From a virus, in IMG/VR virus record IMGVR_UViG_3300022188_000008, positions 31,306 through 95,305 of that record: a stretch of 64,000 bases of DNA; one strand, 5' to 3'. Each line of letters starts with the position of its first letter. Positions within the stretch are counted from its first letter, which is position 1. Shown piece by piece: positions 39,525 through 58,409 of the stretch. The translations under genes were made by a program, and so were the position numbers. The notes under the pieces were generated by a model, which had not been told where the DNA came from, did not search any database, and was given only the letters and a program-made list of their open reading frames with translations.

Positions 39525-39544
39525 TGTGACGAAGGATAAGATAG

Positions 39545-42295: not shown

Positions 42296-42336
42296 ATTTC
42301 ATAATTTTTGTTATGATTTTTTGAGAGGTAACTATA

Positions 42337-44669: not shown

Positions 44670-44730
44670 AGATTTGACTTTATTTTTTGTATTTTGTTAT
44701 CTATGAATAGAAACAAAAGGAGAGAGTATC

Positions 44731-45213
44731 ATGAAAAAAGCATTATTAGGTATCGTGATTTTGTTATTATTTTCTATATCCCCATGTTTTGCCCTTCTTG
44801 GAAATTATACAATTGGTTCAGGAACATGGTCTCCTACCAATCCACAAGCTGGATTACATTATTATGGCAATAATAGATATAAACTCACACTTGAAGCTAC
44901 TTCTAATGGAGATGGAGACGCCTCCATCACTATCAGAGACCTGGGGATGCTGGACATTGCGGGGTACTCATGCATTACGGTGGAGCCAGATGGAACGGAC
45001 ATCCCCACGGACGGCTTTGACTTGAGCATTAAGGACGGCCTCGGGAGGGAGCTCATTACTGGTGGGCAAGGCACAAACCTGAGCAACAGCTCTGCAACAA
45101 GCATCTATCTGGATTGGACACATGTCTGGGACAGCATGACAATCTCCCTCTCAGGAATGGGAGACTCGAAGAAGGCAACTATTACGATTGTGTTTGATGT
45201 TTACTACCCGTAG
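44731..45213 (+). CDS. Signal-peptide protein with a virion-decoration-like beta domain
   Basis: MKKALLGIVILLLFSISPCFA signal; PTD.FDL.I.D..G..L..G.G.N motif. Confidence 0.7.
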   Translation: MKKALLGIVILLLFSISPCFALLGNYTIGSGTWSPTNPQAGLHYYGNNRYKLTLEATSNGDGDASITIRDLGMLDIAGYSCITVEPDGTDIPTDGFDLSIKDGLGRELITGGQGTNLSNSSATSIYLDWTHVWDSMTISLSGMGDSKKATITIVFDVYYP

Positions 45214-45251
45214 CAAATTGTTTGCTGACAATTTGCTTGGTGGAGGCTTAG

Positions 45252-47045
45252 ATGAAGAGAACGTTTTTTCTCGTAACCTTGATGATGCTTTTGCTGTTGC
45301 CTGCGATGGGGTGGGCAGCAGACTGGTATGTCCGTCCTGCAGGAGGAGACTATGGCAATGAGGATGGCACAAGCTATGAGAACGCTTTTGATGGATTTTC
45401 CAATGTCTCTGGCCTTAGCAGTGGCGATACATTATGGGTTTGCGGAACACACAGAGAAACATTGACCATTAATTGGAGCAACGCAATAGTTCGACTGGAC
45501 TATCCATCAGATCCAGGGGTTATCTGTGGCTCAGATCGGATAGATGGTGATGACAGTGGTTGGTCAGGCCCAGATGCCAATGGTGAATACAGTATCTCAT
45601 TAAGCACTGAGTGCAATGTGGTAATCAAAGACGGAATAGTGATGTTGAAGGGTACTGTCGGTTCTCTAAGTCCGAATGAATGGGATTGGGATTCAAACAC
45701 ACTTTATATTGGTAGTGATCCTAGCGGGCACACCTTTGAAGTTGGACAACGAAACTTTCTTATACAGTTCCCTGATTCAGCTGTGTCTAATTTTACTATC
45801 ATAGGTGATGGAGAGCATAAACAGCTTTGTTACGCCAATCGCAATGCTATATCGGCGTCTTGGGATGGGAATACACAATCGTATGGGGACCTTACAGTAG
45901 AGAATATCTGGTTTGATGCCAATGCGAGCCAATGTATTCACTCAGACGGCTCGTATACCTTTGACACAGTGATAGTTCGTAACTGTAAGATAACTCAAAA
46001 CGGCGGTGAAGGTATTTACCTAAAAAATAATATCAACACTAAAGCAATTATTGAGAATAACATTATAGGCTCAGGAACATATGATAACTTTGGCTGGAAT
46101 GGAGGTGGTACAGCATATGACGGTGACGGTATCGACTTAGGACATGGTTACGAGATTACAATTCGCAACAATATTATTCAGAACATAAATGGCACAGGAA
46201 TTCTTGCACAGTCAGGAGATGCGCTAATTGAAGATAATACCATTATTGAGCCTGGGATTGACCGCACTACTAAGTGCGGAATATACATTGACCCGCAGGA
46301 AAGTACTGACGAGGTCATTGTAAGAAGAAATAGAATACTCATGAATTCAAGTAACGCAGACGGAATCCAAGCCAGAGCAGTAAGCGGTAATGAGATTCGA
46401 AAAGAGATATCGTACAACTTGGTAGTATTGCCGATGTCATCTGCAAAAGCATGTGTCACAAATCCAGTATACAACACGAGATATTTTAAGATTCTCAACA
46501 ACACTCTGATTGGCGGAACACATGGTGTTTATATGGATGGAGAGAATCCAATATCATGTGAAATTAAAAATAATATAATCAAAAACAGTACACATAATTT
46601 GTATTTTACTCAGTCTGGGTTATCTGGTATTCAGGTTACCCATAACGCTTTTTATCCAGTCGGTAGTTCCAACGACTTTTATGTTGCTGGTACTACTTAT
46701 ACCACATTGTCAGCGTTTGAGTCTGCAATTAGTACAGCATTAAACAATATGGATGATGATCCAAGGTTATTATCCACCTACCACCTCTCCCACAACTCCC
46801 CCTGCATCAACGCAGGAACAACTATCTCAGGCTTCTACGAGACAGCTCTAGACCTAGACAAGCAACCAATCATCGGAACGCCTGACATTGGATGTGACGA
46901 GAGGAAGGCATTGTGGTGGGATGGGAGGAGATGGCACATGCAGAAATTAATGGTTGAATACAAACCACACAATTCCAACGTGCAAGACGAAGGAACAAAC
47001 GACATTCTAGACGAGAGTGGCAGCAACATCTTGGATGAAAGCTAA
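45252..47045 (+). CDS. Secreted right-handed beta-helix protein
   Basis: Signal ending GWA; parallel beta-helix repeats; SPCINAG...PDIG; C-terminal (I/V)xDExG repeats. Confidence 0.75.
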   Translation: MKRTFFLVTLMMLLLLPAMGWAADWYVRPAGGDYGNEDGTSYENAFDGFSNVSGLSSGDTLWVCGTHRETLTINWSNAIVRLDYPSDPGVICGSDRIDGDDSGWSGPDANGEYSISLSTECNVVIKDGIVMLKGTVGSLSPNEWDWDSNTLYIGSDPSGHTFEVGQRNFLIQFPDSAVSNFTIIGDGEHKQLCYANRNAISASWDGNTQSYGDLTVENIWFDANASQCIHSDGSYTFDTVIVRNCKITQNGGEGIYLKNNINTKAIIENNIIGSGTYDNFGWNGGGTAYDGDGIDLGHGYEITIRNNIIQNINGTGILAQSGDALIEDNTIIEPGIDRTTKCGIYIDPQESTDEVIVRRNRILMNSSNADGIQARAVSGNEIRKEISYNLVVLPMSSAKACVTNPVYNTRYFKILNNTLIGGTHGVYMDGENPISCEIKNNIIKNSTHNLYFTQSGLSGIQVTHNAFYPVGSSNDFYVAGTTYTTLSAFESAISTALNNMDDDPRLLSTYHLSHNSPCINAGTTISGFYETALDLDKQPIIGTPDIGCDERKALWWDGRRWHMQKLMVEYKPHNSNVQDEGTNDILDESGSNILDES

Positions 47046-47057
47046 CAGGAGGTATAG

Positions 47058-48059
47058 ATGAAAAAGATATCTTGGATTTTAGTAGTCTTGTTATTTGTAG
47101 CGTCAGTTGTGCTCGCCGGCAAGATGTCAGATTACTCTGATTTGTCTGCGGGCAACATCGCTGACGGAGACATGTTTCTGCTTCGTGACGTGAGCGACAC
47201 AACGTTAGGTTCAACGGGCACACAGAAAGAATATAGTTGGGCTGCGATGAAAGCAGACCTATTCAGTGCTGGGTTTATGAAAGACTTGGTAGATGATACT
47301 AGCCCACAGCTTGGAGGGAACCTTGATAGCAATAACTTCAACGTTTACATAGGCGATGGTACCTACTCGTGGGATCATAGCCCTATACTTGGGTGTGAGG
47401 GAGTTGTTGAGATAGATGGAACACTCTATGCTGACGGCGGAATCCAGACAGGAGCCAGTGCTCAACCTGGAGTGACTGGGGATGACTCAGACACCACAGC
47501 TAGCCCTGATTGGAAGATTTATGGAGATGCTACAGATCCCACAGCAGGTAGCGAAGATGTTGACTTGTTTATCCAGACCTTGGTGGATGGATCAATGACT
47601 ACGTTGCTTCAGTTTGATGCTGATGGGAACATTGAGGTAGCTAAGGACATTAATCTTGCATCAGGCAAGAAGTACAAGATCAATGGTAGTCAGATCAGTT
47701 CTGATGACCTTTCTGACTCCACAACAATAAACACAAACCTTTTAGAATTTATAAACAAGGACTTGACTACGCTTCATAGTGGTAAGGATGAATGGGTTTA
47801 CATCCCTACTACTTGTTCTTGGACTAGTGTTCATGTTGGCTATGATGGTACGGTAACAGACCTAGTCTTTACAGTTTATAGCGCTGACAGCCCGTATGGA
47901 ACTGCTACCACCGTTGGAACTATTGATCCTGATAACTCTCCATCGGTATCAGGGTGGGGTAATATAACTGCGGGCAAATGGGTGAAGATGGAAGTGACAA
48001 CGGCAAGCACTGGCGATGCTACGGCATGTCAGGTTGCTTTTGTGCTGACTAATCAATAG
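47058..48059 (+). CDS. Signal-peptide tail-fibre-like protein
   Basis: Signal ending VLA; KMS.Y..L...D.FL.RD.SDTT...GT.K; DDTSPQLGGNLD; LASGKKYKING fibre motifs. Confidence 0.72.
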   Translation: MKKISWILVVLLFVASVVLAGKMSDYSDLSAGNIADGDMFLLRDVSDTTLGSTGTQKEYSWAAMKADLFSAGFMKDLVDDTSPQLGGNLDSNNFNVYIGDGTYSWDHSPILGCEGVVEIDGTLYADGGIQTGASAQPGVTGDDSDTTASPDWKIYGDATDPTAGSEDVDLFIQTLVDGSMTTLLQFDADGNIEVAKDINLASGKKYKINGSQISSDDLSDSTTINTNLLEFINKDLTTLHSGKDEWVYIPTTCSWTSVHVGYDGTVTDLVFTVYSADSPYGTATTVGTIDPDNSPSVSGWGNITAGKWVKMEVTTASTGDATACQVAFVLTNQ

Positions 48060-48070
48060 TGAGGGAGAGT

Positions 48071-48814
48071 ATGAAGAAAGTAACATTAATTTTTGGTTTT
48101 ACGCTATGCCTTATCTTAAGTGCCGTAGTGGTGCTTAATGCGGGGTGGTGGGTTTATACTGTAACGGAGCCAGCTTCTAGCTCTTGTTCAACACCTTCTT
48201 ATGGGGATGAATTAAATGAGGGTTTTCTTGGCACTGGATATGAGAATACTTGGGCGGAAAGCGGCAGTTCAGCAACAATAGATGAAGATACCTCTCTTAG
48301 TGGTTCTCCGCCAACTGCATGTTGTAATGAAGGATTAGCCATAACACTAAGCGGAACGGGCACATCAAATACATATTGGGATAGAGGCAGTACAATTTCC
48401 TATTCGACATCTACAGACATAGTATTCTGGATATATTTTACTACATTGAATTTTTCAGATGACTATGAAGCTACCAATCTCGTTGAATGGAATAGCGCAA
48501 CTACACACTATGATGTTTCGAATTGTACAGGTTGGGTTGATGTTATGAAGACAAATACAGGTACATATGTGATGCGTGGTAGAGGTTCTACTTCTTCATC
48601 AAATATATCAATCACCACAGAAACCTGGTATAAAGTTAAATTGCATTTAGATTCGGTAGCGTCCGATTCATACTTACAGATTGATGACGGAACACAATAT
48701 TTTTTTACTAGGAAGGATGTAGACGGCAGGTACCTGTCCATTGGTACAAATGCTCTAGAAACCGGAGATGAATTGGCATATCAAATAGGATATATTTATG
48801 TTGATACACCATAA
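48071..48814 (+). CDS. Secreted ConA/LamG-like lectin-fold protein
   Basis: Signal ending LNA; EGF.GTGYENTW; TWY.V.L; paired Cys. Confidence 0.65.
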   Translation: MKKVTLIFGFTLCLILSAVVVLNAGWWVYTVTEPASSSCSTPSYGDELNEGFLGTGYENTWAESGSSATIDEDTSLSGSPPTACCNEGLAITLSGTGTSNTYWDRGSTISYSTSTDIVFWIYFTTLNFSDDYEATNLVEWNSATTHYDVSNCTGWVDVMKTNTGTYVMRGRGSTSSSNISITTETWYKVKLHLDSVASDSYLQIDDGTQYFFTRKDVDGRYLSIGTNALETGDELAYQIGYIYVDTP

Positions 48815-50111
48815 AGATAGGATTTTATTAGTGCTTCTATTTGTTATACTAATCTTGGTACATACCCATGTATTGGCTTGGACCAAGAGTGGAGATAAAT
48901 ATTATACGGATGGTAGTCAATCAGATGTCCAATCAGCCATAGACGATTCTTCTGTAGGGGAGATAATTCATGTGCCAGGAGGCACATTCACATGGGATAG
49001 AGTATCTATATCTCATGAAATTGTCTTAGAGGGAGAGGGTGTAAATAGTACCACTATTCTTAACAGTCGTACTATCAGTTGTTCGGCTATGTTGCTGTGT
49101 AGCATTTCTACTGATACATCTAACTCTCTGCGCATAACAGGCTTTACATTTAAACCAGCACCGCCTGGCGGGTATTCACCTACACATATACAGATTAACG
49201 GGGATTCCGAGTTTAGAATTGACCACTGTGAATTTACTGGTGTAGATAATTCAGACGATATATGTAATGCAATAATAATTGTTGGTTACAATACGTATGG
49301 AGTCATAGATAGTAATATCTTCTATGACGCAACCAACGAAGTAATACAAGTCAAGGCTGATAACACCACATGGTCAGAGGATGACAAACTAGGAACAGAT
49401 GAGTTTGTATTTATAGAAGATAATATTTTTGATAGTAGTAGCGTTTCTATAGGCACACACGCAGTTACTTCTATTTATGGAGCCAGAGTATGTTTTCGTT
49501 ATAATACGTTATATGGACTTGACTGTGATGCACATGGCCATGGTTCTGAGGTAGGACATCAAGGAACTAGAGTGGTTGAGTACTACAAAAATAAATTGTA
49601 CACTGACGGTCGATGGACATCTGGAATGGTTATAAGGGGTGGTACTGGTGTTATATGGGGAAATGAGTTTTATGACCAAGGTACAGATCAGGGATGGAAT
49701 GACTGTGTGAAGTTAACTGAATATAGAGTTTCCAGAGATACTCCTAATGATGGTTGTTGCCCAATTGCAAGTGGTGGTGAAGGGTATCCGTGTTACGATC
49801 AAATAGGGCGAGGCAAAAATCAACAGAGTTCACCATTGTACATTTGGGGGAATATGCTGGATAGTGATGGAGATGGAATATTAGATAGCAATGCTAGTGT
49901 TAATGTTAGGACTATAACACCAGATGAATGTAATGCAGAACTTTGCACAGACTATATAAAAACTGTAGCCCACAATGGACAAATATTGCCTGATTATTAC
50001 ATTGATATTCAGAAGCCTGGATATTCACCATACACTTATCCTCACCCCTTAAGAGGATGGTTTAAAGGATTCAAAGGAATGACATTTTCAGGAGGTATCT
50101 CAACGCAATGA
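48798..50111 (+). CDS. Secreted beta-helix (pectate-lyase-like fold) protein
   Basis: Signal ending VLA; DVQSAID...P.GTFTW, RIDHC, DAHG, RGGTG, YTYPHPLR; ends FSGGISTQ. Confidence 0.72.
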   Translation: MLIHHKDRILLVLLFVILILVHTHVLAWTKSGDKYYTDGSQSDVQSAIDDSSVGEIIHVPGGTFTWDRVSISHEIVLEGEGVNSTTILNSRTISCSAMLLCSISTDTSNSLRITGFTFKPAPPGGYSPTHIQINGDSEFRIDHCEFTGVDNSDDICNAIIIVGYNTYGVIDSNIFYDATNEVIQVKADNTTWSEDDKLGTDEFVFIEDNIFDSSSVSIGTHAVTSIYGARVCFRYNTLYGLDCDAHGHGSEVGHQGTRVVEYYKNKLYTDGRWTSGMVIRGGTGVIWGNEFYDQGTDQGWNDCVKLTEYRVSRDTPNDGCCPIASGGEGYPCYDQIGRGKNQQSSPLYIWGNMLDSDGDGILDSNASVNVRTITPDECNAELCTDYIKTVAHNGQILPDYYIDIQKPGYSPYTYPHPLRGWFKGFKGMTFSGGISTQ

Positions 50112-50143
50112 AAAACAACAAGTATATATTTTGGAGGCATTTA

Positions 50144-50734
50144 ATGAAGAAATGGCTAACTTTAACATTGCTTTTGTTCTGCATCCCTGCTCTAGTGTGG
50201 GGATGGGGGACGGTGATTATTAGTGGGAATGCGAGTAGTGAAACTATTTGCAATACATTAGCCCTTAGCTATGAATCATCTGGTGATGATGATTGGACAT
50301 TCGGATACGGTTTTACGGATTGTGTAGCAACAGATTTTACGACCACAAATCAGCTTTCAGTATGTAAAGTAGCTGTTTATATCCGTAAAACTGGAACACT
50401 ATCTGGAAATGTAAGGGTGGGCTTTCAATCTGATGCATCTGGTAGCCCGTCAGGGATATGGTTAGCTGTAAGCGAGTGGGTATCGTGGAGTGATATTGGC
50501 ACTACATACGATTGGGTAAATTTCACTTTTCCTACGAATGTATCTTTATCCGCTTCTACTACTTATTGGTTAGTTATAGATACGGATACGGAGTTAAGTG
50601 CAGACCAAGCCTATTGGTACCGAAACAAAACAAGTGGTCCTGGGAGTAATGCTGTGTGTGGTGAGATAGATTGTGACTGTTCATCTTGGAATACCGCCAG
50701 TGGTAGGACTGCATATTATAGGATTTATGAATAA
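50144..50734 (+). CDS. Secreted beta-sandwich (CBM-like) protein
   Basis: Signal MKKWLTLTLLLFCIPALVWG; D.SG.P, W..F.F...V.L...TTYWLV. Confidence 0.65.
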   Translation: MKKWLTLTLLLFCIPALVWGWGTVIISGNASSETICNTLALSYESSGDDDWTFGYGFTDCVATDFTTTNQLSVCKVAVYIRKTGTLSGNVRVGFQSDASGSPSGIWLAVSEWVSWSDIGTTYDWVNFTFPTNVSLSASTTYWLVIDTDTELSADQAYWYRNKTSGPGSNAVCGEIDCDCSSWNTASGRTAYYRIYE

Positions 50735-50765
50735 AAACTGCATATTATAGGATTTATGAATAAAA
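50708..50765. repeat. Perfect 29-bp tandem duplication
   Basis: ACTGCATATTATAGGATTTATGAATAAAA twice. Confidence 0.95.
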
Positions 50766-52168
50766 TGAGAAACCTTAGAATTTTATTTTTCATTATGACA
50801 TGGATCATTTTTGTGCTCTTACATAGTTTGAGCCTAGCTGCTTGTCACTATGTACGTCCTCCAGGCGGTGATTACGGCAACGAGGACGGAACCGACTGGA
50901 ATAATGCGTATGATGGCTTGCCCACAACACTGGTAAGGGGTGATGTTTACTATGTTGCTGCTGGAGTTTACAATAACGGTTGGTATTTGGACGACCCAGA
51001 ATCCGGAACATCTGTCATAACTATAAAAAAGGCCAATGCTTCTGAGTGTGCAAGCGTTCAAGGTTGGCTGTCTGAATTTGAGACTGGCCAGGTAGTGGTT
51101 TATAATGGCTCTGATACAACCTACGGAGCAGCTATTACAATAACCCGTGGATATTATATTATCGACGGCGTTACGGGAACGGGTACCTCCGGTTATGGCA
51201 TCAAACTCCGATATGCTCACTTAAATCAAGACAATACAGGTATCCTTATCAGGGATAATGCCGTATCAAGTTTGACCGTGAGACATGTTGAGTTTGACAT
51301 GCCAGGAAGTTCTTATAATTACGCCCAGTGGGGAATATATCGTGTATCAGGTTCGTTTTCAAATGCGCATGTCGATCATTGCTACGCACACAATTTTAAT
51401 GTTTTTATGAAAGATGATGGTGGAGGAGGGACAATCATTGAAAACTGCTATTTCAAAAACCAATGGTCATCTTCCAACCATCACGGAGAATTAATTTCTA
51501 TTGTCTGCACAGATGGCCTGATCTTTCGGTACAATATTGTCGAAAATGCTGTAAACGGAACTGGGGGTATAATTGTTTTAGGTGATTATGAAACATACGA
51601 ATGTAGTGTCGATGACGTGGAAATTTATGGAAATGTGTTTTTTGATTGTTCTGGTGGTGGGAATGGAATAATAGGAACGGGAAGTAGTTACTGCTCACTA
51701 GGTGCCAAAAACTGGAAAATTTACAATAACACTATTGTTGATTCAGGTTCAGTGTTTGTTTATTTCCCGATGCGAGAGTGTGCAGCTGGAGGTGAACCTG
51801 CAAGTAATTTTCTTATTAAGAACAATCTGATATTCAATAGCAGCGCCTATATAGATGCGAATTCAGCAACCGTAGACCATAATTATTTCAATTCTGAAAC
51901 AAGTGTGGGACCAGATGGAAAGGGGACAAACCAAGTTAATTCTACCCAAACATCAGCACAAACTTTTGTAGACTATGAGAATGATAGATTTGAGTTAAAG
52001 AGTGGATCTGATGCAATAGATACAGGCGTTGATCTTGGGACACCGTATAATATTGATATACTAAGTGTTTCTCGACCTCAAGGCTCAGCTTGGGACATCG
52101 GGGCTTATGAATATGTATGGGGAAATTTCCTTGGCATTTCATTTTCAGGAGGCATCTCAACACAATAG
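50756..52168 (+). CDS. Secreted right-handed beta-helix protein
   Basis: Signal ending SLA; YVRP.GGDYGNEDGT shared with 45252; RPQGSAWDIGAYEY; ends FSGGISTQ. Confidence 0.75.
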   Translation: MNKMRNLRILFFIMTWIIFVLLHSLSLAACHYVRPPGGDYGNEDGTDWNNAYDGLPTTLVRGDVYYVAAGVYNNGWYLDDPESGTSVITIKKANASECASVQGWLSEFETGQVVVYNGSDTTYGAAITITRGYYIIDGVTGTGTSGYGIKLRYAHLNQDNTGILIRDNAVSSLTVRHVEFDMPGSSYNYAQWGIYRVSGSFSNAHVDHCYAHNFNVFMKDDGGGGTIIENCYFKNQWSSSNHHGELISIVCTDGLIFRYNIVENAVNGTGGIIVLGDYETYECSVDDVEIYGNVFFDCSGGGNGIIGTGSSYCSLGAKNWKIYNNTIVDSGSVFVYFPMRECAAGGEPASNFLIKNNLIFNSSAYIDANSATVDHNYFNSETSVGPDGKGTNQVNSTQTSAQTFVDYENDRFELKSGSDAIDTGVDLGTPYNIDILSVSRPQGSAWDIGAYEYVWGNFLGISFSGGISTQ

Positions 52169-52200
52169 GAAAATAACATACCACACAGAAGGAGGAAACA

Positions 52201-52557
52201 ATGAGAAAGCTAAGTAAGACATTATTAACCATCATGGCTATGGTAGCAATCGCAGTGGCCTGCACAACTACCAATACAGGATACAGGTTCGATTGGGATA
52301 AGCTACCTCCCAAGACACGGGCTACGCTGGCGATGGACATCTACAACCAGGAATATCAGAACTATAAGCTCCAAGCCTTAGCCCCAGACCTGACAAATCA
52401 TGAAAGGGATGTTCTGAGGAAGAAGAAGGAGGCACTTATCCAACTACACGATGTTATCCAGCTTTATAACGGGTACATCATGAAGGGAGAGGTTCCACCG
52501 GACTTACTGGAAAAGAAACTGGTAGAAGCGTTGAATGCAATCTTAGATGCAGTATAG
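52201..52557 (+). CDS. Lipoprotein
   Basis: MRKLSKTLLTIMAMVAIAVAC lipobox-like signal; helical body. Confidence 0.7.
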   Translation: MRKLSKTLLTIMAMVAIAVACTTTNTGYRFDWDKLPPKTRATLAMDIYNQEYQNYKLQALAPDLTNHERDVLRKKKEALIQLHDVIQLYNGYIMKGEVPPDLLEKKLVEALNAILDAV

Positions 52558-52566
52558 GAGGACAAC

Positions 52567-52737
52567 ATGGACGACACAACAAGAAGCCTGGTAGAAGAAT
52601 TGACCAAATTAGTGATATATGGCGCTGTTTCCTATTTGAGAATCGCAGGAAAGAGTGATGAGGAGATAGACCAGCTTTTCAATGAAGCGCTGGAGAAGTT
52701 TAGGGCGAACAAACCAGAGGATTTGCCGAATGTGTAA
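52567..52737 (+). CDS. Small protein (56 aa, not in ORF track)
   Basis: MDDTTRSLVEELTKLVIYGAVSYLRIAGKSDEEIDQLF...PEDLPNV; AGGAGG RBS. Confidence 0.6.
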   Translation: MDDTTRSLVEELTKLVIYGAVSYLRIAGKSDEEIDQLFNEALEKFRANKPEDLPNV

Positions 52738-52779
52738 GCAGCGGAAAAGATATAAACCACGAATCGCAAGGAGGGTAAA

Positions 52780-52944
52780 ATGACACAAGTTGGGAGTTGT
52801 CCTAAATGTGGTGCACCAATTTATGCTCCATCTGTATGGCATGGGATTACTCCACCACCGCCAATGTTTACTTGCGGTTGCAACTCTGTAATTAATACTG
52901 TTGTAACTAGCAATACGTATACAGTTCGGGTAGAAGATAAATAG
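52780..52944 (+). CDS. Small Zn-binding protein (54 aa, not in ORF track)
   Basis: GSCPKCGAPIY...PPPP..TCGC; AGGAGG RBS. Confidence 0.6.
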   Translation: MTQVGSCPKCGAPIYAPSVWHGITPPPPMFTCGCNSVINTVVTSNTYTVRVEDK

Positions 52945-53034
52945 ATGTGGGTTTAGTCAGCGAGCATTCTATAGTACTATTTAATGTAAGTGATTTTTTT
53001 GAACGTGATGGGTTGCTATCAACTAAATTAAAAA

Positions 53035-53442
53035 ATGTTATATCATGGAACAAAAGTTTTTCCTAATGAAGTTTTAATTACTGGTTTAAAGCCAATTGAC
53101 GTGGAGCAAACCATAAATAATGTAATAGAGAAATATGCTTTTTGTGGCCAACTAAAATGTAAATTTAAGAAGAGAATTTCTGAATATGTCCAAGCAAAGT
53201 TAAAGCATTTACACGTCTATCTGACGGATGATTTTAACATGGCTATTAGTTATGCAAAGTATGGTAGTAATTTCATAGGCCTCCTTGAAATAGAGGCTTG
53301 TGATTTGCTTGGTAAAACTTGGAAACCAAATAAAATCGGATATGTATATTTTGTAAATTTGCAAGGAAAGGATGAAGTGAAAGTACCTTATGTCCATCCT
53401 AGATTAATCACTGGGTGGGTAAAGATTGATTTTTCTGCATAG
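53035..53442 (+). CDS. ADP-ribosyltransferase-fold protein (H-Y type, Tpt1/KptA- or Arr-like)
   Basis: LYHGT...GL.P...VYLT....A.SYA...G.VY.V...VHP..I. Confidence 0.65.
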   Translation: MLYHGTKVFPNEVLITGLKPIDVEQTINNVIEKYAFCGQLKCKFKKRISEYVQAKLKHLHVYLTDDFNMAISYAKYGSNFIGLLEIEACDLLGKTWKPNKIGYVYFVNLQGKDEVKVPYVHPRLITGWVKIDFSA

Positions 53443-53454
53443 TATAAGGTAGAA

Positions 53455-53521
53455 GCGGGTTCGGTCAGCGAGCATCCCCAACCAACGGGATGAGCAGGGG
53501 CAGTTCCTGCAACCCGCTCCA
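53455..53521 (+). ncRNA. D-armless tRNA-like RNA ending in CCA
   Basis: GCGGGTT/AACCCGC acceptor stem plus TCCA; GCAGG-GGCAGTT-CCTGC T-arm; CATCCC-8nt-GGGATG arm. Confidence 0.65.
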
Positions 53522-53532
53522 AGGGGAGTACC

Positions 53533-53808
53533 ATGAGAAAGTTTAGAAAGAAACCGGTTGTTATAGAAGCAGAACAATGGTTTAAAATTGGTGATGTTAA
53601 AGCCGCTGGAATAATCCCGTGGACTGTGAATTGCGATAATATATGCCTAAAATGTGGCAAACCATTAAAACACCACGGATTATGTCCAACATTGGAAGGA
53701 AATCATATAGTTTGTCCAGGAGATTGGATAATTAAAGGTGTGGCTGGGGAATTTTATCCCTGTAAACCTGATATTTTTGAAGAAACGTATGAGGAATGGA
53801 CTGGCTAG
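53533..53808 (+). CDS. Conserved phage protein (KKPVVIEA.Q...TLEG...GDWII.G..GEFYPCKPDIF..TY family) with a CxxC insert
   Basis: Motif recognised; function unknown. Confidence 0.75.
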   Translation: MRKFRKKPVVIEAEQWFKIGDVKAAGIIPWTVNCDNICLKCGKPLKHHGLCPTLEGNHIVCPGDWIIKGVAGEFYPCKPDIFEETYEEWTG

Positions 53809-53884
53809 ACCCTAGTGGTCGGGAATCCCCATCAGTGGAAGCAAAAGGCCGGCGTCCCGTGGGTTTGCAACCACTGGCCAGTCC
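53798..53884 (+). ncRNA. Cloverleaf-like structured RNA
   Basis: GGACTGGC/GCCAGTCC closing stem enclosing GACC/GGTC, GGGA/TCCC and GTGG/CCAC arms. Confidence 0.5.
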
Positions 53885-53914
53885 TAATCAAGGAGTGAGA
53901 GCAGTTCTATAGAT

Positions 53915-54142
53915 ATGCAACAAGCAGCAATAAAACCCAGAGCACAAAGGCGATACAACAGACAGCGACTGATGAAGCGATTAGCTAGGGAAATCACTTG
54001 GTATTCGCCAAGCGAGAAGGAACTAAGCATCCTAGTGAACAGCAGGCCAAGGTGTTCTTGTTGGATGTGCGGGAATCCAAGAAGACACTTTGGTCAGAGG
54101 ACGGTGCAGGAGAGAAAGCAATATGGCAGCAACACCAGATGA
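53915..54142 (+). CDS. Small basic protein with CSCxxCGNPRR motif
   Basis: CSCWMCGNPRRHFGQRTVQERK. Confidence 0.65.
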   Translation: MQQAAIKPRAQRRYNRQRLMKRLAREITWYSPSEKELSILVNSRPRCSCWMCGNPRRHFGQRTVQERKQYGSNTR

Positions 54143-54305
54143 GAGCATGAATGTAATAGCCTATACCACTACGACACGTCATGGAGATATTTGGGAAGAA
54201 CCTAAAATTATGCAATATCCCAACACAAAACCAATTGTTAAAGTTAAAAGTAAAAGGATGCGACGTAGAGTGGTAATTAGCAAGATAAAAAGGAGAACAA
54301 GATGA
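54123..54305 (+). CDS. Small basic hypothetical protein
   Basis: ORF track 54090..54305; GGAGA RBS near the ATG at about 54123. Confidence 0.4.
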   Translation: MAATPDESMNVIAYTTTTRHGDIWEEPKIMQYPNTKPIVKVKSKRMRRRVVISKIKRRTR

Positions 54306-54466
54306 AAAACGTAGGCATAGCAACATGTGACCAATGCGGGCAGGAGAAAGAGTGCATTCAGATCAGCATCTTGGTGGAGAGCTTCTTCTTCACCAAAACG
54401 AAGACATACAACCTTTGCGAAACATGCCTCTCGAAAGCGCTGAGGATGTGTAAGAGGGAGCAATGA
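54302..54466 (+). CDS. Small Zn-finger protein (54 aa, not in ORF track)
   Basis: CDQCG...LCETCL.KAL; AGGAG RBS; ATGA overlaps on both sides. Confidence 0.6.
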   Translation: MKNVGIATCDQCGQEKECIQISILVESFFFTKTKTYNLCETCLSKALRMCKREQ

Positions 54467-54819
54467 AACTGATCGTTGAAGAGTGGAACGACAACACTGG
54501 GTTTGAGTATCGAGGGAGTATCCCCAATCCTCAATTTGATGCTCAAGTGTGGTTGGATAACGAGCTTTCAATAATAGTTAGGGCACTGTTCGAAGGGGAG
54601 GTAGTTGCAGCACTCCAGTTCAACAATTCTTTTGACCACGGTGATGAAATATTGGTTTATGGCCGACTTGTGAAGCCGAAACCAATTTATGAAACATATG
54701 CCAGGTGGAGAATTGCAAAGATGAAACAACCAACTTCCAAGACACAAATTAAGAGTCACTCTTTCTTTAAAGGGGAGCATTTTCTTTTTAGGATAATAAG
54801 ATGGTTTGCAAGGAACTGA
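54463..54819 (+). CDS. Hypothetical protein
   Basis: ORF coupled to the previous gene. Confidence 0.5.
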   Translation: MKLIVEEWNDNTGFEYRGSIPNPQFDAQVWLDNELSIIVRALFEGEVVAALQFNNSFDHGDEILVYGRLVKPKPIYETYARWRIAKMKQPTSKTQIKSHSFFKGEHFLFRIIRWFARN

Positions 54820-55349
54820 AGACAACAAACTTTGAACGGCTAAAACCTAAGATGACAACAGGCATGTGTATCCTTTGGAGGGGGAACTTCCTTATCTCGG
54901 AGGTAATACGACAGTGGACTGAATACAGTCATGTATCCTTAATTGTCAGATTCAATAGATACCCCCTACTCAAGGATAAGGTCTTCCTCATTGAGGCGTA
55001 TGAGCACGGCTTGGAGTTCAACGATTTGGAAGAGAGACTTGAGGAAGAGCCAGGGAGGGTTGACCTCTTCGTTCCGTATGACCTCGACAAGTGGAAAGCA
55101 CTGACCATCTTCAAGAACGCATTCCTCTTCTTGGCACACAATACTGGCTACGATTATGCAGGACTCTTCAAGAGTGCATTTACTCACCCAGATAGAGACC
55201 CAACCAGGTTCTTCTGCTCGGAGTTCGTGGATTATATCTGGATAACCAATGGGTTGAAACGCAAAGTCAACAACACATTGGCGGCCTGGCCTGGAGACAT
55301 TCCTAAGTGGTGGGATGGGCAGCTTTATACGATTAAGGAGGATGGATGA
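54801..55349 (+). CDS. Permuted papain-like NlpC/P60 (YaeF/YiiX-like) enzyme
   Basis: YSHV, LIEA, GYDY, FFCSEFV; His precedes the catalytic Cys. Confidence 0.8.
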   Translation: MVCKELKTTNFERLKPKMTTGMCILWRGNFLISEVIRQWTEYSHVSLIVRFNRYPLLKDKVFLIEAYEHGLEFNDLEERLEEEPGRVDLFVPYDLDKWKALTIFKNAFLFLAHNTGYDYAGLFKSAFTHPDRDPTRFFCSEFVDYIWITNGLKRKVNNTLAAWPGDIPKWWDGQLYTIKEDG

Positions 55350-55561
55350 AAACATATTTATTTGATGACAAAAGGTCAATTTGGCACGCAGTACTTGGCT
55401 TTTTTGTTGGTGTATTTCCGTGGTATTTAGCTGTACCTGTAGTATTGGGATATACCGTATATGAGGTAAGGGAACCGGAAGACCCAACAGCCACCGTGGG
55501 CGATATGGTTGAATTTGTCGTTGGGTTCATAATCGGCATCATCATACGTATAGGAGGATAA
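55346..55561 (+). CDS. Small membrane protein
   Basis: H...GF, YE..E, GD..EF..G with hydrophobic segments. Confidence 0.6.
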   Translation: MKTYLFDDKRSIWHAVLGFFVGVFPWYLAVPVVLGYTVYEVREPEDPTATVGDMVEFVVGFIIGIIIRIGG

Positions 55562-55562
55562 G

Positions 55563-55784
55563 ATGGAAACAACCAAAGAAATCATTGCTGGCATTGTAGA
55601 AACTACCAAAGAAGTCATCATTGGGGTTAATGAAACCCTGAAGAATGACAAGTTTCTTGGCTTCTTGGCAGTTGTTATCCTTGCGTTTGTGGTCAAGGAT
55701 GCTTCACCAGAATCAATGGAATGGTACAAGATGGCCTTGAGTGGGCTGTTTGGTGCGATCGTGGGGCACTCAATGAAGAGGTAG
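55563..55784 (+). CDS. Holin-like two-TM protein
   Basis: Two hydrophobic segments; N-terminal ETTKE(I/V)I duplication. Confidence 0.5.
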   Translation: METTKEIIAGIVETTKEVIIGVNETLKNDKFLGFLAVVILAFVVKDASPESMEWYKMALSGLFGAIVGHSMKR

Positions 55785-55787
55785 GAA

Positions 55788-56102
55788 ATGACGGATTGGA
55801 TAGTCACCGGAGCACTCGGGATTATTTCGCTTTTCATTACAATCGCAACCCTTCTCAAGCGAACATTTGTCTTCAAGGAGGAATGCAGGAATATGAGACA
55901 AGCCACAGAAGCACTACACACAAAGGATCTGAAATTAAGAGACCAAATGATAGAGATGTTAGAGCGGAAGTTTGAAGAGTTTCGCAAGGACATCAAGGCA
56001 GAAATGACAGCTACCAGGGATGAGTTACGGGAAGAGATGAACGGAGTCAAAGGCATTCTTCAAACAATCCTAGCAAAGGTAGACGGCAAGGGGTCATTAT
56101 GA
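55788..56102 (+). CDS. Single-TM coiled-coil protein (holin or lysis accessory)
   Basis: N-terminal TM plus coiled coil, just before the endolysin. Confidence 0.55.
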   Translation: MTDWIVTGALGIISLFITIATLLKRTFVFKEECRNMRQATEALHTKDLKLRDQMIEMLERKFEEFRKDIKAEMTATRDELREEMNGVKGILQTILAKVDGKGSL

Positions 56103-56722
56103 ACCAGACAGAGAAACATCACGTCAGGAACACCACCCAAGGGCTGAAGATGGTGTGTCGGAAGCTCACCAAGGCTAGAAACAAGCACCAAGAGTCGGCA
56201 AAGGAAATAAACGATGCCATCTCAGATATTGAGTTTTTTGCAAGGAGGCTAGAGAATAGCATGAAGGGACGGGCACAAGAAAAACACATTGCAGTTTTCA
56301 ACCGGTACAGCGATCTTGAGTTGCTAACCATGCTGCTAATCGGAGAAGCGGAGGGAGAACCCTGGGAGAGCAAGGTGGGGGTTGGACTCACGGTCAGGAA
56401 CAGGGTCTTGACGAGAAAGAAGTACTTTGGCTTGGGATGGCGGGGCGTTATGTTGGCGACAACGTCTAGCGGGGCACCGCAGTTCTCTTGCTTTGCATCG
56501 AAATCTAGAATTAAGTCTATGATTACTCACTGGAAGAAACAAGATGTACTTTGGCAAGAACATCAAGGTATTGCGCTAAACGTATACTTGGGGCTGTTTA
56601 GGGATTTTGTTGGTAATCCTCTTTACTATCATGCAGTTGGATTTAAGCCCCGTGGTTGGTGGTTGAAATTAAAGAAATTAGGTAGGTTTGGAAATCATAT
56701 TTTTTATACAGAAAAGTCTTGA
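56099..56722 (+). CDS. SleB/Hydrolase_2-family cell wall hydrolase (endolysin)
   Basis: GEAEGE...V.NRV, QFSCF, YYHA, P..W, G.HIFY. Confidence 0.85.
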   Translation: MNQTEKHHVRNTTQGLKMVCRKLTKARNKHQESAKEINDAISDIEFFARRLENSMKGRAQEKHIAVFNRYSDLELLTMLLIGEAEGEPWESKVGVGLTVRNRVLTRKKYFGLGWRGVMLATTSSGAPQFSCFASKSRIKSMITHWKKQDVLWQEHQGIALNVYLGLFRDFVGNPLYYHAVGFKPRGWWLKLKKLGRFGNHIFYTEKS

Positions 56723-56859
56723 TTTTTATAAATTAATATGTTAAGCAATCATCGAAGTAATAAATAAGGAAGGAATAGCAATTATGAGTGAAGGAATGAC
56801 AAGTTATATAAACGACAATAACTCAGATAAACTGAGTTTTTGTGCTATTCCTTCTTACA

Positions 56860-56898
56860 GCCCTCTAAGCATCACTCACTTAGGGGGTTTTCTTTTTT
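56860..56898 (+). terminator. Intrinsic terminator ending the late operon
   Basis: GCCCTCTAAG-9nt-CTTAGGGGGT-TTTCTTTTTT. Confidence 0.75.
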
Positions 56899-56976
56899 CT
56901 ACACATACCCTACTATCTGGTATCCCCTCTAAAGGCTTTGAGGATATAACTATATCTCTTTTGAGATATATTTGTA

Positions 56977-57190
56977 TATGAGCCGAGGCTGGCGTCTCCT
57001 CGCTGGAAAAGTGGCGCTACCCAGATTTGACCTTCAGGAGGTCACCCCGTCCTGGTGCTGGTAGGCAGGGGATAGGCTGGGGATTCGTTGTTGGGGGTAT
57101 GCAACAACGAATGGCCGGTAAAGCCAGACCTGGGCGGTCACACCACCCCAGTTCAGCCCGAGGAGGGCTGATTCCGACGATGGCTCCATA
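56977..57190 (+). ncRNA. Candidate GC-rich multibranch ncRNA
   Basis: Nested stems 57077-82/57146-51, 57083-93/57102-12, TGGC/GCCA, GACC/GGTC and 57153-59/57165-71; the ends pair (TATGAGCC/GGCTCCATA). Confidence 0.6.
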
Positions 57191-57286
57191 CGGTAGAAAA
57201 AAATCATAATTTTTCATAATAATCAAATTTCATAATTTTTGTTATGATTTTTCTCATAATGTAGAAAACACTTATGCCATCCCAGA

Positions 57287-58013: not shown

Positions 58014-58052
58014 AGCCTATTAGTTCCTTTTTTAGAATTTTCATAATTTTTG

Positions 58053-58409
58053 TTATGATTTTTTCTTAGAGGAAAAGAAACTTAATGTGATAATAGCACC
58101 ATCATCATCTATATATGTTAAATAAAGATCTAAATCAGTTATATCTTTCCAGCTAAATTCCTTTCCTTTAGTTGTTATTAGTTTAATTTCTTTCACAGAT
58201 TCTTGTCGTATATCTCTACTTGGGAACGTATATAGGTCTTTCCTCCAGATTGGTAATTCATGTGTGTTTTCTTTCCAGAATTTATCTAAATCTTTTTTGG
58301 CTTTTCTGGCATGTCTCAAAAACAATAAATTTGCAATAATACATATTAAAGCCCATACTAAAACTCCAACTATAACAGCCATCACTACTTTATGATATAT
58401 TATAAGCAT
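58053..58409 (-). CDS. Membrane-anchored hypothetical protein
   Basis: N-terminal TM segment. Confidence 0.55.
   Translation of the reverse strand: MLIIYHKVVMAVIVGVLVWALICIIANLLFLRHARKAKKDLDKFWKENTHELPIWRKDLYTFPSRDIRQESVKEIKLITTKGKEFSWKDITDLDLYLTYIDDDGAIITLSFFSSKKKS

What the first reader, a model, noticed from the sequence alone, without database searches (positions are those of the whole stretch)
44731..52557. Array of eight consecutive exported proteins, several with virion-fibre motifs: candidate periplasm-assembled modular phage fibre system
Seen: every ORF from 44731 to 52557 starts with a signal peptide (basic N-terminus, hydrophobic core, small-residue cleavage site; the last is a lipobox). 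None of the upstream structural genes has one, including the similar beta-helix spike at 38049. The block is visibly more GC-rich than the head and tail genes, and several mature domains are Cys-rich. Known: virion proteins normally fold and assemble in the cytoplasm without signal peptides, yet 47058 carries tail-fibre motifs (K.S.L...D..L..D.SDTT...T.K, DTSPQLGGNLD) and 44731 resembles capsid-associated decoration proteins. Inference: these fibre, lectin and depolymerase subunits are exported, disulfide-folded in the periplasm and docked onto virions at lysis. The alternative is a phage-encoded cell-surface appendage anchored by the lipoprotein.
Basis: partly seen in the sequence, partly recalled or inferred. 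Interest (0 to 1): 0.88.

Follow-up and report, generated by a model that had tools for sequence, protein, structure and literature searches.

The report
Exported fibre-and-enzyme cassette in a phage
A hydrothermal-vent phage carries a swappable block of eight late genes (a fibre, sugar-binding-like proteins, sugar-cutting-type enzymes and a lipoprotein) that all start with bacterial export signals, so this host-surface gear should fold outside the cytoplasm where tailed-phage particles are built, a route I found described in no paper searched.

Summary
All eight ORFs from 44731 to 52557 have a basic N-terminus, a hydrophobic core and a small-residue cleavage site. P8, and possibly P7, has a lipobox. 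Almost no other gene of the 95-kb phage has such an N-terminus. GC3 is 0.37 in the block against 0.21 in head and tail genes. P2, P5, P6 and P7 are Cys-rich.

The block lies in the late operon between tail and lysis genes, with no terminator-like site inside. It is a mobile mosaic. Other vent phages with different or related backbones carry versions in which leader-coding 5' ends, C-terminal tags, P3 and P8 are 90-96% identical but the enzyme bodies are swapped.

P1 belongs to a large, phage-only, unnamed family, mostly leader-bearing. Some members are leaderless and start exactly at the predicted cleavage site. Others are fused to fibres. Many lie between capsid and head-tail adaptor genes. 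P5 keeps all invariant polar residues of a widespread secreted beta-helix family.

Export is well supported. Docking onto virions is not shown. The best precedent is analogous, not homologous: leader-bearing proteins of Cellulophaga phages phi10:1 and phi18:3, annotated as virion proteins from MS/MS.

This scan has noted the same pattern in other phages. The open-access papers I searched do not describe it.

The parts
44731..45213 (+). P1: leader-bearing 160-aa jelly-roll protein, lectin/CBM-like or decoration-like, the first gene of the cassette
   Evidence: The leader is kept in 13/13 relatives. AF2 model has pLDDT 74.7. Foldseek best hits are CBM32 and F-type lectin modules (2j22, E 4e-6); the HFTV1 head turret scores 2e-4. 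Profile search finds 2,489 cluster representatives. Nearest ESM Atlas clusters are all viral. P1 is 78-83% identical in L003 and L004.
45252..47045 (+). P2: leader-bearing 597-aa right-handed beta-helix protein with a conserved C-terminal 90 aa and an acidic tail
   Evidence: Pfam Beta_helix scores 52.9 bits against a cut-off of 25.9. The leader (45252-45329) and C-terminus (from 46776) are 92-94% identical in L001 while the body is replaced. L003 has the same leader on another body.
47058..48059 (+). P3: leader-bearing 333-aa tail-fibre-type protein with a conserved N-terminal module, the DTSPQLGGNLD motif, a central domain and a variable C-terminal domain
   Evidence: Homologues P0002-P0007 all have leaders and differ in their C-terminal domains. 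ESM Atlas neighbours are viral, with Mtd_N, PTL_trimer and Peptidase_S74 families, score 0.90. P3 is 96% identical in L001. The AF2 monomer model was unusable (pLDDT 41).
48059..48814 (+). P4: leader- or anchor-bearing 251-aa protein with no family match; I read it as lectin-like from its sequence
   Evidence: Relatives with leaders occupy the same position in L003 (247 aa) and L002 (278 aa). In L001 the same leader is joined to a P6-like body. No Pfam family matched.
48798..50111 (+). P5: leader-bearing 437-aa beta-helix enzyme of a widespread secreted family, ending in the motif YTYPHPL followed by the C-terminal tag ...FSGGISTQ
   Evidence: 351 homologues were found; 100 of the 120 listed have leaders, including chromosomal ones from Nitrospira, Nitrosomonas and CPR bacteria. 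P5 keeps every residue that is at least 95% conserved in the family: E207, R234, N236, H246, E261, N265, R280, N289.
50108..50734 (+). P6: leader-bearing 208-aa choice-of-anchor R / DUF4082-like beta-sandwich protein
   Evidence: NCBIfam NF041539 scores 34.3 bits against a cut-off of 30. The L001 209-aa protein is a relative.
50756..52168 (+). P7: 470-aa beta-helix protein with a choice-of-anchor Q domain, a leader with a lipobox-like LAAC, and the C-terminal tag ...FSGGISTQ
   Evidence: NF041518 scores 39.6 bits against a cut-off of 25. Its N-terminus is a paralogue of P2's, and the L002 533-aa protein is a relative.
52201..52557 (+). P8: 118-aa lipoprotein (lipobox AVAC, Cys21)
   Evidence: Lipobox. 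P8 is 97% identical in L001. It is absent from L003. Similarity to a lipoprotein in L002 is weak (E 3e-4).
50076..50109 (+). First copy of the tag repeat (the 3' end of P5). The second copy is at 52133-52166 (the 3' end of P7).
   Evidence: Direct repeat D2, 85% identical. L001 has a single tag where the window has P6 and P7 between two tags.
46776..48186 (+). Segment shared at 94% nucleotide identity with an otherwise unrelated phage contig (L001)
   Evidence: blastn result. Contig loose ends in other vent runs fall at 45252, 45329, 46774-46816 and 47007.
55346..56722 (+). Lysis cassette downstream of the block: two small membrane proteins, a membrane-anchored coiled-coil protein, and a Hydrolase_2 endolysin
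   Evidence: The endolysin is 67% identical to that of L004. The first terminator-like site on the + strand downstream of the block start (44731) is at 56820.

Best explanation
The eight genes form a mobile, mosaic late-gene cassette of host-surface-directed proteins that mature outside the cytoplasm. They are transcribed with the tail and lysis genes. Each product is taken across the cytoplasmic membrane by the host Sec system. Its leader is removed by signal peptidase I, or by signal peptidase II with lipidation for P8 and perhaps P7. The mature protein folds in the periplasm, or in the wall zone if the host has a single membrane, where its cysteines can form disulfides.

The products wait there until the holin and endolysin open the cell, and only then meet the finished particles. 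I think the phage-specific members then bind the particle as add-ons, in the way capsid decoration proteins and side fibres bind finished particles. These members are P1, a small lectin-like jelly roll that in other phages is encoded among head genes or fused to the base of fibres, and P3, a tail-fibre-type protein. The beta-helix enzymes (P2, P5, P7) and lectin-like proteins (P4, P6) cut or bind a host surface polysaccharide, either riding on that scaffold or released free.

Conserved leader-coding 5' ends and short C-terminal tags act as homology arms through which enzyme bodies are exchanged between phages of the same host.

Shown: leader grammar and its conservation, late-operon position, mosaicism and foreign composition, the family assignments, and intact conserved residues in P5. 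Inferred: actual export and cleavage, disulfide formation, enzyme substrates, and above all attachment to the virion.
For: Leaders. Their conservation despite sequence drift.

Leaderless members of the P1 family begin M-AG(T/S)(V/I)TQ, exactly where leader-bearing members are predicted to be cleaved (AxA|AGS/T...). So the leader is a discrete add-on, and the mature domain also works when made in the cytoplasm. A second family shows the same dimorphism (L039 and L065 leaderless, L040 with leader).

The P1 gene lies between the major head protein and head-tail adaptor genes in at least 13 contigs. The P1 domain is fused to the N-terminus of leader-bearing fibres (P0221, P0303, P0312, P0347).

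P3 resembles tail fibres.

There is no terminator-like site on the + strand from the block start to 56820, and promoter-like sites are no more frequent than in shuffled sequence.

Mosaic exchange has breakpoints at the leader and tag boundaries. GC3 is shifted.

The same gene order (P1-like, fibre, small lectin-like, beta-helix), next to an endolysin, recurs in unrelated IMG/VR contigs.

Cultured-phage analogy, checked here: Cellulophaga phage phi10:1 gp091-095 and phi18:3 gp085-087 are runs of leader-bearing proteins between tail and lysis genes. The GenBank records call them structural protein, pectate lyase and tail fiber protein 'based on experimental MS/MS proteomics analysis'.
Against: No datum places any of these eight proteins on a particle. 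The Cellulophaga proteins share no detectable similarity with them, and MS/MS of purified phage can pick up co-purifying proteins.

P2, P5 and P7 start their beta-helix directly after the leader, like cellular secreted enzymes, with no adaptor domain.

The phage already has a leaderless spike and a full tail-tip set.

The block occurs in phages with unrelated head and tail genes, and I found no shared docking partner.

Small partners and enzymes are shuffled between loci, which argues against fixed heteromers.

The host is unknown, so 'periplasm' is itself an assumption.
Confidence: 0.45

Rival explanations
1. These are free exported enzymes and lectins, not virion parts. The cassette is an extension of the lysis and egress machinery, or a receptor-destroying set. 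Depolymerases placed in the periplasm or outside the wall late in infection degrade capsule, EPS or O-antigen-like polymer as it is made. This frees progeny, prevents re-adsorption to debris, and may block superinfection. P8 would be a small envelope lipoprotein of the Llp/Cor kind.
For: P5, P6 and P7 belong to families of cellular secreted or surface proteins (choice-of-anchor Q and R; the P5 family with chromosomal members). P5 keeps the conserved polar residues. The enzymes have no adaptor domain. The cassette sits close to the lysis cassette here and in L002, L008, L026, L033 and L040. The cassette and lysis genes share the foreign composition. The phage has its own leaderless spike.
Against: This does not explain why a tail-fibre-type protein (P3) and a phage-specific protein encoded in head modules (P1) carry leaders and lead the cassette. 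It does not explain why P1 is fused to fibres. Leaderless P1 members speak against a job that must be done in the periplasm before lysis. The analogous Cellulophaga proteins are annotated as found in virions.
Confidence: 0.33
2. This is a moron or auxiliary cargo that benefits the host: captured bacterial surface or secreted proteins (adhesins, polysaccharide-degrading enzymes) used for lysogenic conversion or nutrient acquisition, unrelated to particle or lysis function.
For: Composition is foreign. Some members belong to cellular families. Some carriers are temperate: L033 has an integrase-like gene downstream (N-terminal sequence read by eye, not scanned against a family library).
Against: No promoter or terminator of its own was found, and the genes overlap and run into each other inside the late operon. 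No integrase, resolvase or reverse transcriptase was found in the 95-kb record, which is 86% complete. P1 and P3 look phage-specific. The gene order is conserved across unrelated phages.
Confidence: 0.08
3. The hydrophobic N-termini are not cleaved export signals. They are membrane anchors, for example holding fibres at the inner membrane, or start-codon or annotation artefacts.
For: P4 and P6 have long hydrophobic cores (about 19 residues or more) that could be signal anchors. No predictor or experiment was available.
Against: Leaderless relatives start exactly at the predicted cleavage site. AxA-type sites are present in most. The same grammar is kept across hundreds of relatives with diverged sequences. 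The positive-inside rule would still put the bulk of the protein outside the cytoplasm.
Confidence: 0.06

Closest known systems
Leader-bearing virion proteins of cultured Cellulophaga baltica phages: phi10:1 gp091-gp095 (NC_021802) and phi18:3 gp085-gp087 (NC_021794)
   Same: These are runs of three to five consecutive late genes between leaderless tail genes and holin-like and endolysin genes. Every product has a Sec-type leader while other structural proteins have none. They include 'pectate lyase' and 'tail fiber protein'. The record notes cite MS/MS of virions.
   Different: No sequence similarity to the window's proteins. The host is Bacteroidota, with leaders ending ...AQ|T. There is no P1-family gene. 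I found no paper that discusses the leaders.
Multi-depolymerase receptor-binding sets of tailed phages (CBA120 TSP1-4, G7C gp63.1/gp66, Klebsiella phage PhiK64-1), from my own knowledge
   Same: Several beta-helix enzymes and fibres are encoded in tandem after the tail genes. They evolve as mosaics with conserved ends and swapped bodies and determine which surface glycans are attacked.
   Different: Those proteins are made and assembled in the cytoplasm. They attach through N-terminal adaptor domains and have no leaders. Here the enzymes lack adaptor domains, and the conserved ends are a leader and a short C-terminal tag.
Exported phage proteins encoded beside tail-fibre or lysis genes: T5 Llp, Cor of T1/phi80/N15, lambda Lom and Bor; Sec-exported endolysins (fOg44 Lys44, SAR endolysins of P1 and 21), from my own knowledge
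   Same: These are phage proteins that use the host Sec or lipoprotein pathway. They are encoded next to receptor-binding or lysis genes, and they act in the envelope.
   Different: They are single small genes that block a receptor or cut the wall. None is a fibre, lectin or beta-helix array. P8 is not adjacent to the coiled-coil membrane protein and does not look like an o-spanin.
Capsid decoration proteins that bind finished particles (lambda gpD, phage L Dec, T4 Hoc/Soc; turret of Haloferax tailed virus 1, PDB 8qpg)
   Same: They are small beta-rich add-ons that bind after capsid maturation. P1-family genes sit at the decoration-gene position after the major head protein in many phages. The P1 model matches the HFTV1 turret weakly (E 2e-4, TM 0.38).
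   Different: Known decoration proteins have no leader. The P1 fold match is generic (a CBM or lectin jelly roll). In this window P1 lies after the tail genes.
Cellular 'choice-of-anchor' Q and R surface proteins (NCBIfam NF041518, NF041539) and the unnamed secreted beta-helix family of P5
   Same: P7, P6 and P5 meet the family thresholds or keep the invariant residues. They have leaders like their cellular relatives.
   Different: The cellular proteins end in sorting domains (T9SS tail PF18962, Fn3, others). The phage versions end in an 11-residue tag and lie in a phage late operon.

Membership tests
Sec (signal peptidase I) secretory proteins | Positively charged n-region, uncharged hydrophobic core, small residues at -3/-1 | tested here: met
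   n-region charge is +1 to +5 and an uncharged core is present in all eight. Clear AxA-type sites are listed for P2, P3, P4 and P5, and P7 and P8 have a lipobox. For P1 (CFA|LL) and P6 (VWG|WG) the sites are my manual reading, not in the list. The cores of P4 and P6 are long, so a signal anchor is possible. No SignalP run.
Sec (signal peptidase I) secretory proteins | Leader is a separable extension removed at a defined site | tested here: met
   For the P1 family only: about 17 of the 147 best relatives lack the leader and begin M-AG(T/S)(V/I)TQ, the residues that follow AxA| in leader-bearing members. Actual cleavage was not tested.
Bacterial lipoproteins (lipobox, PROSITE PS51257-type rule) | [LVI..][ASTVI..][AGS]-C within residues 15-35, after a basic N-terminus and an uncharged stretch | tested here: met
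   P8 has AVAC with Cys21. P7 has LAAC with Cys30. Lipidation is not testable here.
Right-handed parallel beta-helix proteins (Pfam PF13229) | Score above the gathering threshold | tested here: met
   P2 scores 52.9 bits against 25.9. P5 and P7 did not reach it directly. P5 relatives carry PF13229, PF22842 or PF12708.
choice-of-anchor Q / R domain proteins (NF041518 / NF041539) | Score above the NCBIfam cut-off | tested here: met
   P7 scores 39.6 against 25. P6 scores 34.3 against 30. P2 scores 13.9, below the cut-off.
Phage tail fibre proteins | Homology to a described tail-fibre family or structure | tested here: inconclusive
   P3 has no Pfam, PHROG or PDB match. It shares only a motif with leaderless fibre-like proteins. 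ESM Atlas neighbours are viral fibre families at score 0.90, which is lead level. The AF2 model failed.
Virion structural proteins | Presence in purified particles | not testable with these tools
   Only an analogy is available: the MS/MS notes for non-homologous Cellulophaga phage proteins.
Morons (independently transcribed cargo genes) | Own promoter and terminator, with deviant composition | tested here: not met
   Composition is deviant. But no terminator-like site on the + strand lies between the block start (44731) and 56820, promoter-like sites are at chance level, and the genes overlap. The scan is crude.
Two-component spanin (P8 as o-spanin) | Small lipoprotein gene embedded in, overlapping or next to the i-spanin gene | tested here: not met
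   P8 lies 3.2 kb upstream of the coiled-coil membrane protein at 55788. No lipobox ORF was found in 55300-57000.
Diversity-generating retroelement targets | Reverse transcriptase and template repeat nearby | tested here: not met
   No RVT_1 match in the 95-kb record. Variation is by cassette exchange.

The most novel reading that the evidence does not exclude
Tailed phages have a second, so far undescribed assembly route. A set of outer parts (a capsid- or tail-binding jelly-roll base of the P1 family, fibres, lectins and depolymerases) is exported by the host Sec system and oxidatively folded in the periplasm. These parts are loaded onto finished particles only in the moments after lysis. 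The P1 family (at least 2,489 sequence clusters, with leader-bearing and leaderless versions) would be the common base of this add-on system. The leader-and-tag flanks would make it a plug-in cassette that moves between unrelated phages of one host.
Probability: 0.4. Interest if true: 0.85.

Novelty: new variant of a known kind. Interest (0 to 1): 0.72.

Why it matters
Textbook tailed-phage morphogenesis is entirely cytoplasmic. Receptor-binding proteins and depolymerases are searched for, annotated and engineered on that assumption.

If fibres, lectins and depolymerases are routinely exported, three things follow. First, host-range determinants may need periplasmic folding, which matters for producing them recombinantly. 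Second, a share of phage 'hypothetical' late genes gets a place: the P1 family alone has thousands of clusters and no name. Third, lysis timing and particle completion become coupled in a new way.

Even under the rival reading, with free enzymes, the cassette would be a new kind of egress or receptor-destroying module that travels with lysis genes.

The case is directly testable in cultured Cellulophaga phages that show the analogous arrangement.

Tried and rejected
I could not see the contexts of P0003 (96.9-kb contig), P0004 or the P5 relatives.
2. P3 in IMG/VR found no relative. P3, P5, P7 and the block DNA against GenBank phages gave nothing, or for P3 only motif-level hits.
3. Sequence search of PDB with P1, P3, P5 and P7 gave nothing usable.
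4. The AF2 model of P3 was unusable (pLDDT 41).
5. Complex prediction with three copies of mature P1 returned no verdict (score 0.17). I drew no conclusion from it. I sent no heteromer job because small partners and enzymes are shuffled between loci, so no pair had a good prior.
6. Host identification failed. The P1 scan of GTDB genomes found nothing. The endolysin scan found only a 2.3-kb contig binned with a Thermoplasmatales MAG, probably a mis-binned phage fragment. Kin cannot be drawn for a virus record. The terminase is at most 36% identical to Clostridia, Faecalibacterium, Helicobacter and Campylobacter phages.
7. No RNA holder was listed for the stretch.
8. An apparent joint 58000->42297 in the laid contigs turned out to be an artefact of a 26-nt repeat.
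9. I considered P8 as an o-spanin and rejected it.
10. I considered a DGR and rejected it.
11. Literature searches for exported tail fibres, for phage signal peptides on structural proteins, and for vent phages found no description of this arrangement.

Full report
**Setting.** The window is the right two-thirds of a single 95,305-bp virus record, which IMG/VR classes as linear and CheckV estimates as 86% complete. It is a tailed phage with a long non-contractile-type tail. PHROG matches identify the large terminase (19446), portal (21005), major head protein (23914) and a 1,926-aa tape measure (30076-35856). Tail-tip genes run to 44669. A lysis cassette lies at 55346-56722: two small membrane proteins, a membrane-anchored coiled-coil protein and a Hydrolase_2 endolysin. 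No integrase, resolvase or reverse transcriptase was found. The stretch occurs in hydrothermal-vent metagenomes. Five runs hold all of it and five more hold 25-47% of its sampled words. The host could not be named.

**The observation.** I scanned 141 non-overlapping ORFs of the whole record for an N-terminal hydrophobic segment. All eight consecutive ORFs from 44731 to 52557 have one, with a peak 10-residue hydropathy of 2.8-4.0. No head or tail gene does, and only about three other credible genes do; those are small membrane proteins. At that background rate, eight in a row is not chance. Each has a net positive n-region and an uncharged core. Each has a site with small or aliphatic residues at -3/-1 or a lipobox, read by hand for P1 and P6. 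P8 fits the lipobox rule, and P7 has a lipobox-like LAAC that aligns with the cleavage region of its paralogue P2.

The block is GC-richer than the head and tail genes (0.416 against 0.338). The difference is larger at third codon positions (0.365 against 0.209), so it reflects codon usage and not amino-acid content. The deviant composition continues through the lysis genes, where GC3 is 0.454. P2, P5, P6 and P7 have 7-12 cysteines each, while most head and tail proteins have 0-4. Two corrections apply: the GC-rich stretch is longer than the block, and P7 may also be a lipoprotein.

**What the proteins are.**
- P2 is a right-handed beta-helix protein.
- P7 carries a choice-of-anchor Q domain and P6 a choice-of-anchor R domain, both above the NCBIfam cut-offs. 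These are domains of bacterial surface and secreted proteins.
- P5 belongs to an unnamed but widespread family. I found 351 relatives, including chromosomal genes of Nitrospira, Nitrosomonas and CPR bacteria. Of the 120 listed, 100 have leaders. P5 keeps every position that is at least 95% conserved in that family (E207, R234, N236, H246, E261, N265, R280, N289) and the terminal YTYPHPL motif. It therefore looks like an active enzyme.
- P1 gave a usable model (pLDDT 74.7). It is a jelly roll whose best matches are carbohydrate-binding modules and F-type lectins. It also matches small viral proteins, and more weakly the head turret of Haloferax tailed virus 1.
- P3 has no family or structure match, and its monomer model failed. 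Its six close relatives all have leaders. They share its N-terminal module and central domain but differ in the C-terminal domain, which is the classical layout of a receptor-binding fibre. Its DTSPQLGGNLD motif recurs, often several times, in leaderless phage fibre-like proteins. Its nearest ESM Atlas clusters are viral and carry tail-fibre families (lead level).
- P4 has leader-bearing relatives at the same position in two other loci.

**The block is a mobile mosaic.** Four related loci show this.
- L001 is a 23-kb vent contig with its own terminase, portal and capsid genes and 42% GC. It carries the block at 90-96% nucleotide identity, but only in pieces: the 78-nt leader of P2, the last 90 codons of P2 with all of P3 and the leader of P4, the C-terminal tag, and P8 with its downstream region. 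The bodies of P2, P4 and P5 are different genes. P6 and P7 are absent. The window has P6 and P7 between two copies of the tag where L001 has one tag.
- L003 is a 96-kb relative with the same tail genes (63-89% identity). It keeps P1 (83%) and the P2 leader. After them come another beta-helix body, a 985-aa leader-bearing fibre, a P4-like protein and a 747-aa leader-bearing protein. It has no P8.
- L004 is a lambda-like phage with 47.5% GC. It has P1 (78%) flanked by a leader-bearing beta-helix protein and a leader-bearing Fn3 protein. These sit among leaderless spike and fibre genes. Its endolysin is 67% identical to the window's.
- L002 is a further backbone. It has a P1-like gene, a 2,514-aa leader-bearing fibre that contains the P3 central domain, a P4-like protein and two leader-bearing beta-helix proteins, directly followed by lysis genes.

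Contigs from other vent runs break off exactly at 45252 and 45329, the two ends of the P2 leader, and near 46774-47007. Every variant of every cassette member has a leader. The conserved leader-coding and tag-coding ends are where exchange happens.

**The pattern is general.** Twenty-nine IMG/VR contigs encode P5 relatives. Nineteen of these relatives have leaders, and many lie in runs of two to four leader-bearing ORFs. Where I read them, the order was P1-like, then a fibre whose mature end starts IPPxPP, then a small lectin-like protein, then a beta-helix protein, next to an endolysin (L007, L008, L011, L026, L031, L033).

A profile of the P1 family finds 2,489 cluster representatives at E <= 1e-3 among 1.84 billion proteins, and 326 at E <= 1e-10. 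The family has no Pfam or PHROG name, and its nearest Atlas clusters are all viral. Of the 147 best hits, 126 have a canonical leader ending AxA|AG(S/T)(V/C)TQ. About 17 have none and begin M-AG(T/S)(V/I)TQ, exactly at the predicted mature end. A few are fused as the N-terminal domain of leader-bearing fibres of 393 to 1,279 aa.

In 40 further IMG/VR contigs the P1 gene usually lies in the head module. In L039 the order is head protease, major head protein, two unknowns, P1, head-tail adaptor, head closure protein. In at least 13 contigs the adaptor or the capsid genes flank P1. When leader-bearing fibres and enzymes are present, they are inserted between P1 and the adaptor. A neighbouring family shows the same dimorphism, with a leader in L040 and none in L039, L065 and L007.

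**How it most likely works.** Export is the well-supported step. The leaders follow the rules. They are kept while their sequences drift. They are attached both to phage-type proteins (P1, P3) and to captured cellular types. The cysteine content fits extracytoplasmic folding. The genes overlap or abut, and the first terminator-like site after the block follows the endolysin. So the products are made late and would sit outside the cytoplasm until lysis.

What happens next is open. I favour loading onto particles at lysis, at least for P1 and P3, for four reasons.
- P1 sits at the decoration-gene position in many phages and is fused to fibre bases.
- Leaderless P1 versions exist, so the mature domain serves a target that can be reached from either compartment. 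This fits a particle better than a periplasmic target.
- P3 is built like a fibre with a conserved attachment end.
- Two cultured Cellulophaga phages have the same arrangement, with leaderless tail genes, then three to five leader-bearing proteins, then holin-like and endolysin genes. Their GenBank records call those proteins structural, 'pectate lyase' and 'tail fiber protein' on the basis of virion MS/MS. I confirmed the leaders myself. This lead came from earlier notes of this scan.

It is an analogy only, because there is no sequence similarity.

The main rival is that the enzymes and lectins act free, as an egress or receptor-destroying set that travels with the lysis genes. In its favour:
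- The enzymes have a cellular-enzyme look and no adaptor domain.
- The phage has its own leaderless spike.
- The block occurs in phages with unrelated virion genes and no shared partner.
- The cassette and the lysis genes share the foreign composition.

The two readings may both be partly true. A cargo (moron) reading fits poorly with the operon structure and with the phage-specific members. A reading in which the N-termini are not export signals is contradicted by the leaderless relatives.

**Comparison with what is known.** Tandem, mosaic sets of depolymerase spikes and fibres are well known, but they are cytoplasmic and attach by N-terminal adaptors. Exported phage proteins are also known (Llp, Cor, Lom, Bor, Sec- or SAR-type endolysins), but as single small genes with other jobs. 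Decoration proteins can bind finished capsids, but have no leaders. The closest thing on record is the unremarked set of leader-bearing MS-detected proteins in Cellulophaga phages. I found no paper describing exported fibre, lectin and enzyme cassettes or the P1 family. This scan has noted the same pattern repeatedly on other phage DNA. I class it as a new variant of a known kind. If post-lysis loading is real, it is a new assembly route for tailed phages.

**Limits.**
- No signal-peptide predictor, proteome or transcriptome was available.
- The host and its envelope type are unknown.
- Gene calls in related loci are my own simple ORF calls.

Noticed in passing
window 50708-50765: A 29-nt sequence is duplicated exactly in tandem (50708-50736 and 50737-50765). 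The first copy holds the stop codon of P6 and the second holds the start codon of P7. Without the duplication the two genes would overlap in the ATGA manner seen between P5 and P6. It may be a recent slip or the scar of a cassette junction.
   Followed up: partly
window 12254-12279(-), 12572-12597(-), 42297-42322(+), 57228-57253(+), 58039-58064(+): Five copies of a 26-nt motif containing the palindrome TCATAA-N6-TTATGA, where none is expected by chance. They lie at the early/late divergence region, inside the tail operon just before gene 42337, and after the late-operon terminator. It looks like an operator for a dimeric regulator.
   Followed up: partly
L001 12700-13045: The P5-like gene of the related contig has an in-frame TGA. 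After it, 68 more codons stay in frame and end in the conserved YTYPHPL...GGISTQ tail. This could be a nonsense variant, a sequencing error or read-through. I did not resolve it.
   Followed up: no
window 44700-57000: The whole right end of the late operon (cassette, several small genes and the lysis cassette) has foreign codon usage: GC3 is 0.37-0.45 against 0.21. Its endolysin is 67% identical to that of a lambda-like phage with 47.5% GC (L004). The host-envelope-directed genes seem to have been acquired together.
   Followed up: partly
L039:4313-5182, L040:6975-7940, L065:6198-7220, L007 311-aa ORF: A second phage family, encoded just before P1 in head modules, has the N-terminal motif (T)Y.PK(V/I)Y.K.GG. 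It occurs without a leader in three contigs and behind a canonical leader in one.
   Followed up: partly
L002 1-3477: Upstream of its exported cassette, this contig encodes a protein made of SESA repeats (more than 250 aa), a 740-aa glycosyltransferase-like/methyltransferase-like fusion, and a further methyltransferase-like gene (read from sequence, no family scan). This might be a glycosylation module for a Ser-rich protein.
   Followed up: no
window 38049-41491 versus L003 2721-6788: The leaderless beta-helix spike (38049) and the N-terminal 86 residues of the next tail protein are replaced in the close relative L003. There the N-terminal roughly 790 residues of a single 1,355-aa protein take their place, and from their sequence these look like a lectin-like domain and a repeat domain. 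The virion's own spike is therefore also a swappable cassette.
   Followed up: partly
window 52942-53521: Direct repeat D7 (52942-52967 and 53450-53475, 85% identical) brackets ORF 53035-53442. Another first-stage note reads a tRNA-like element there. ARAGORN finds no tRNA in the window.
   Followed up: no
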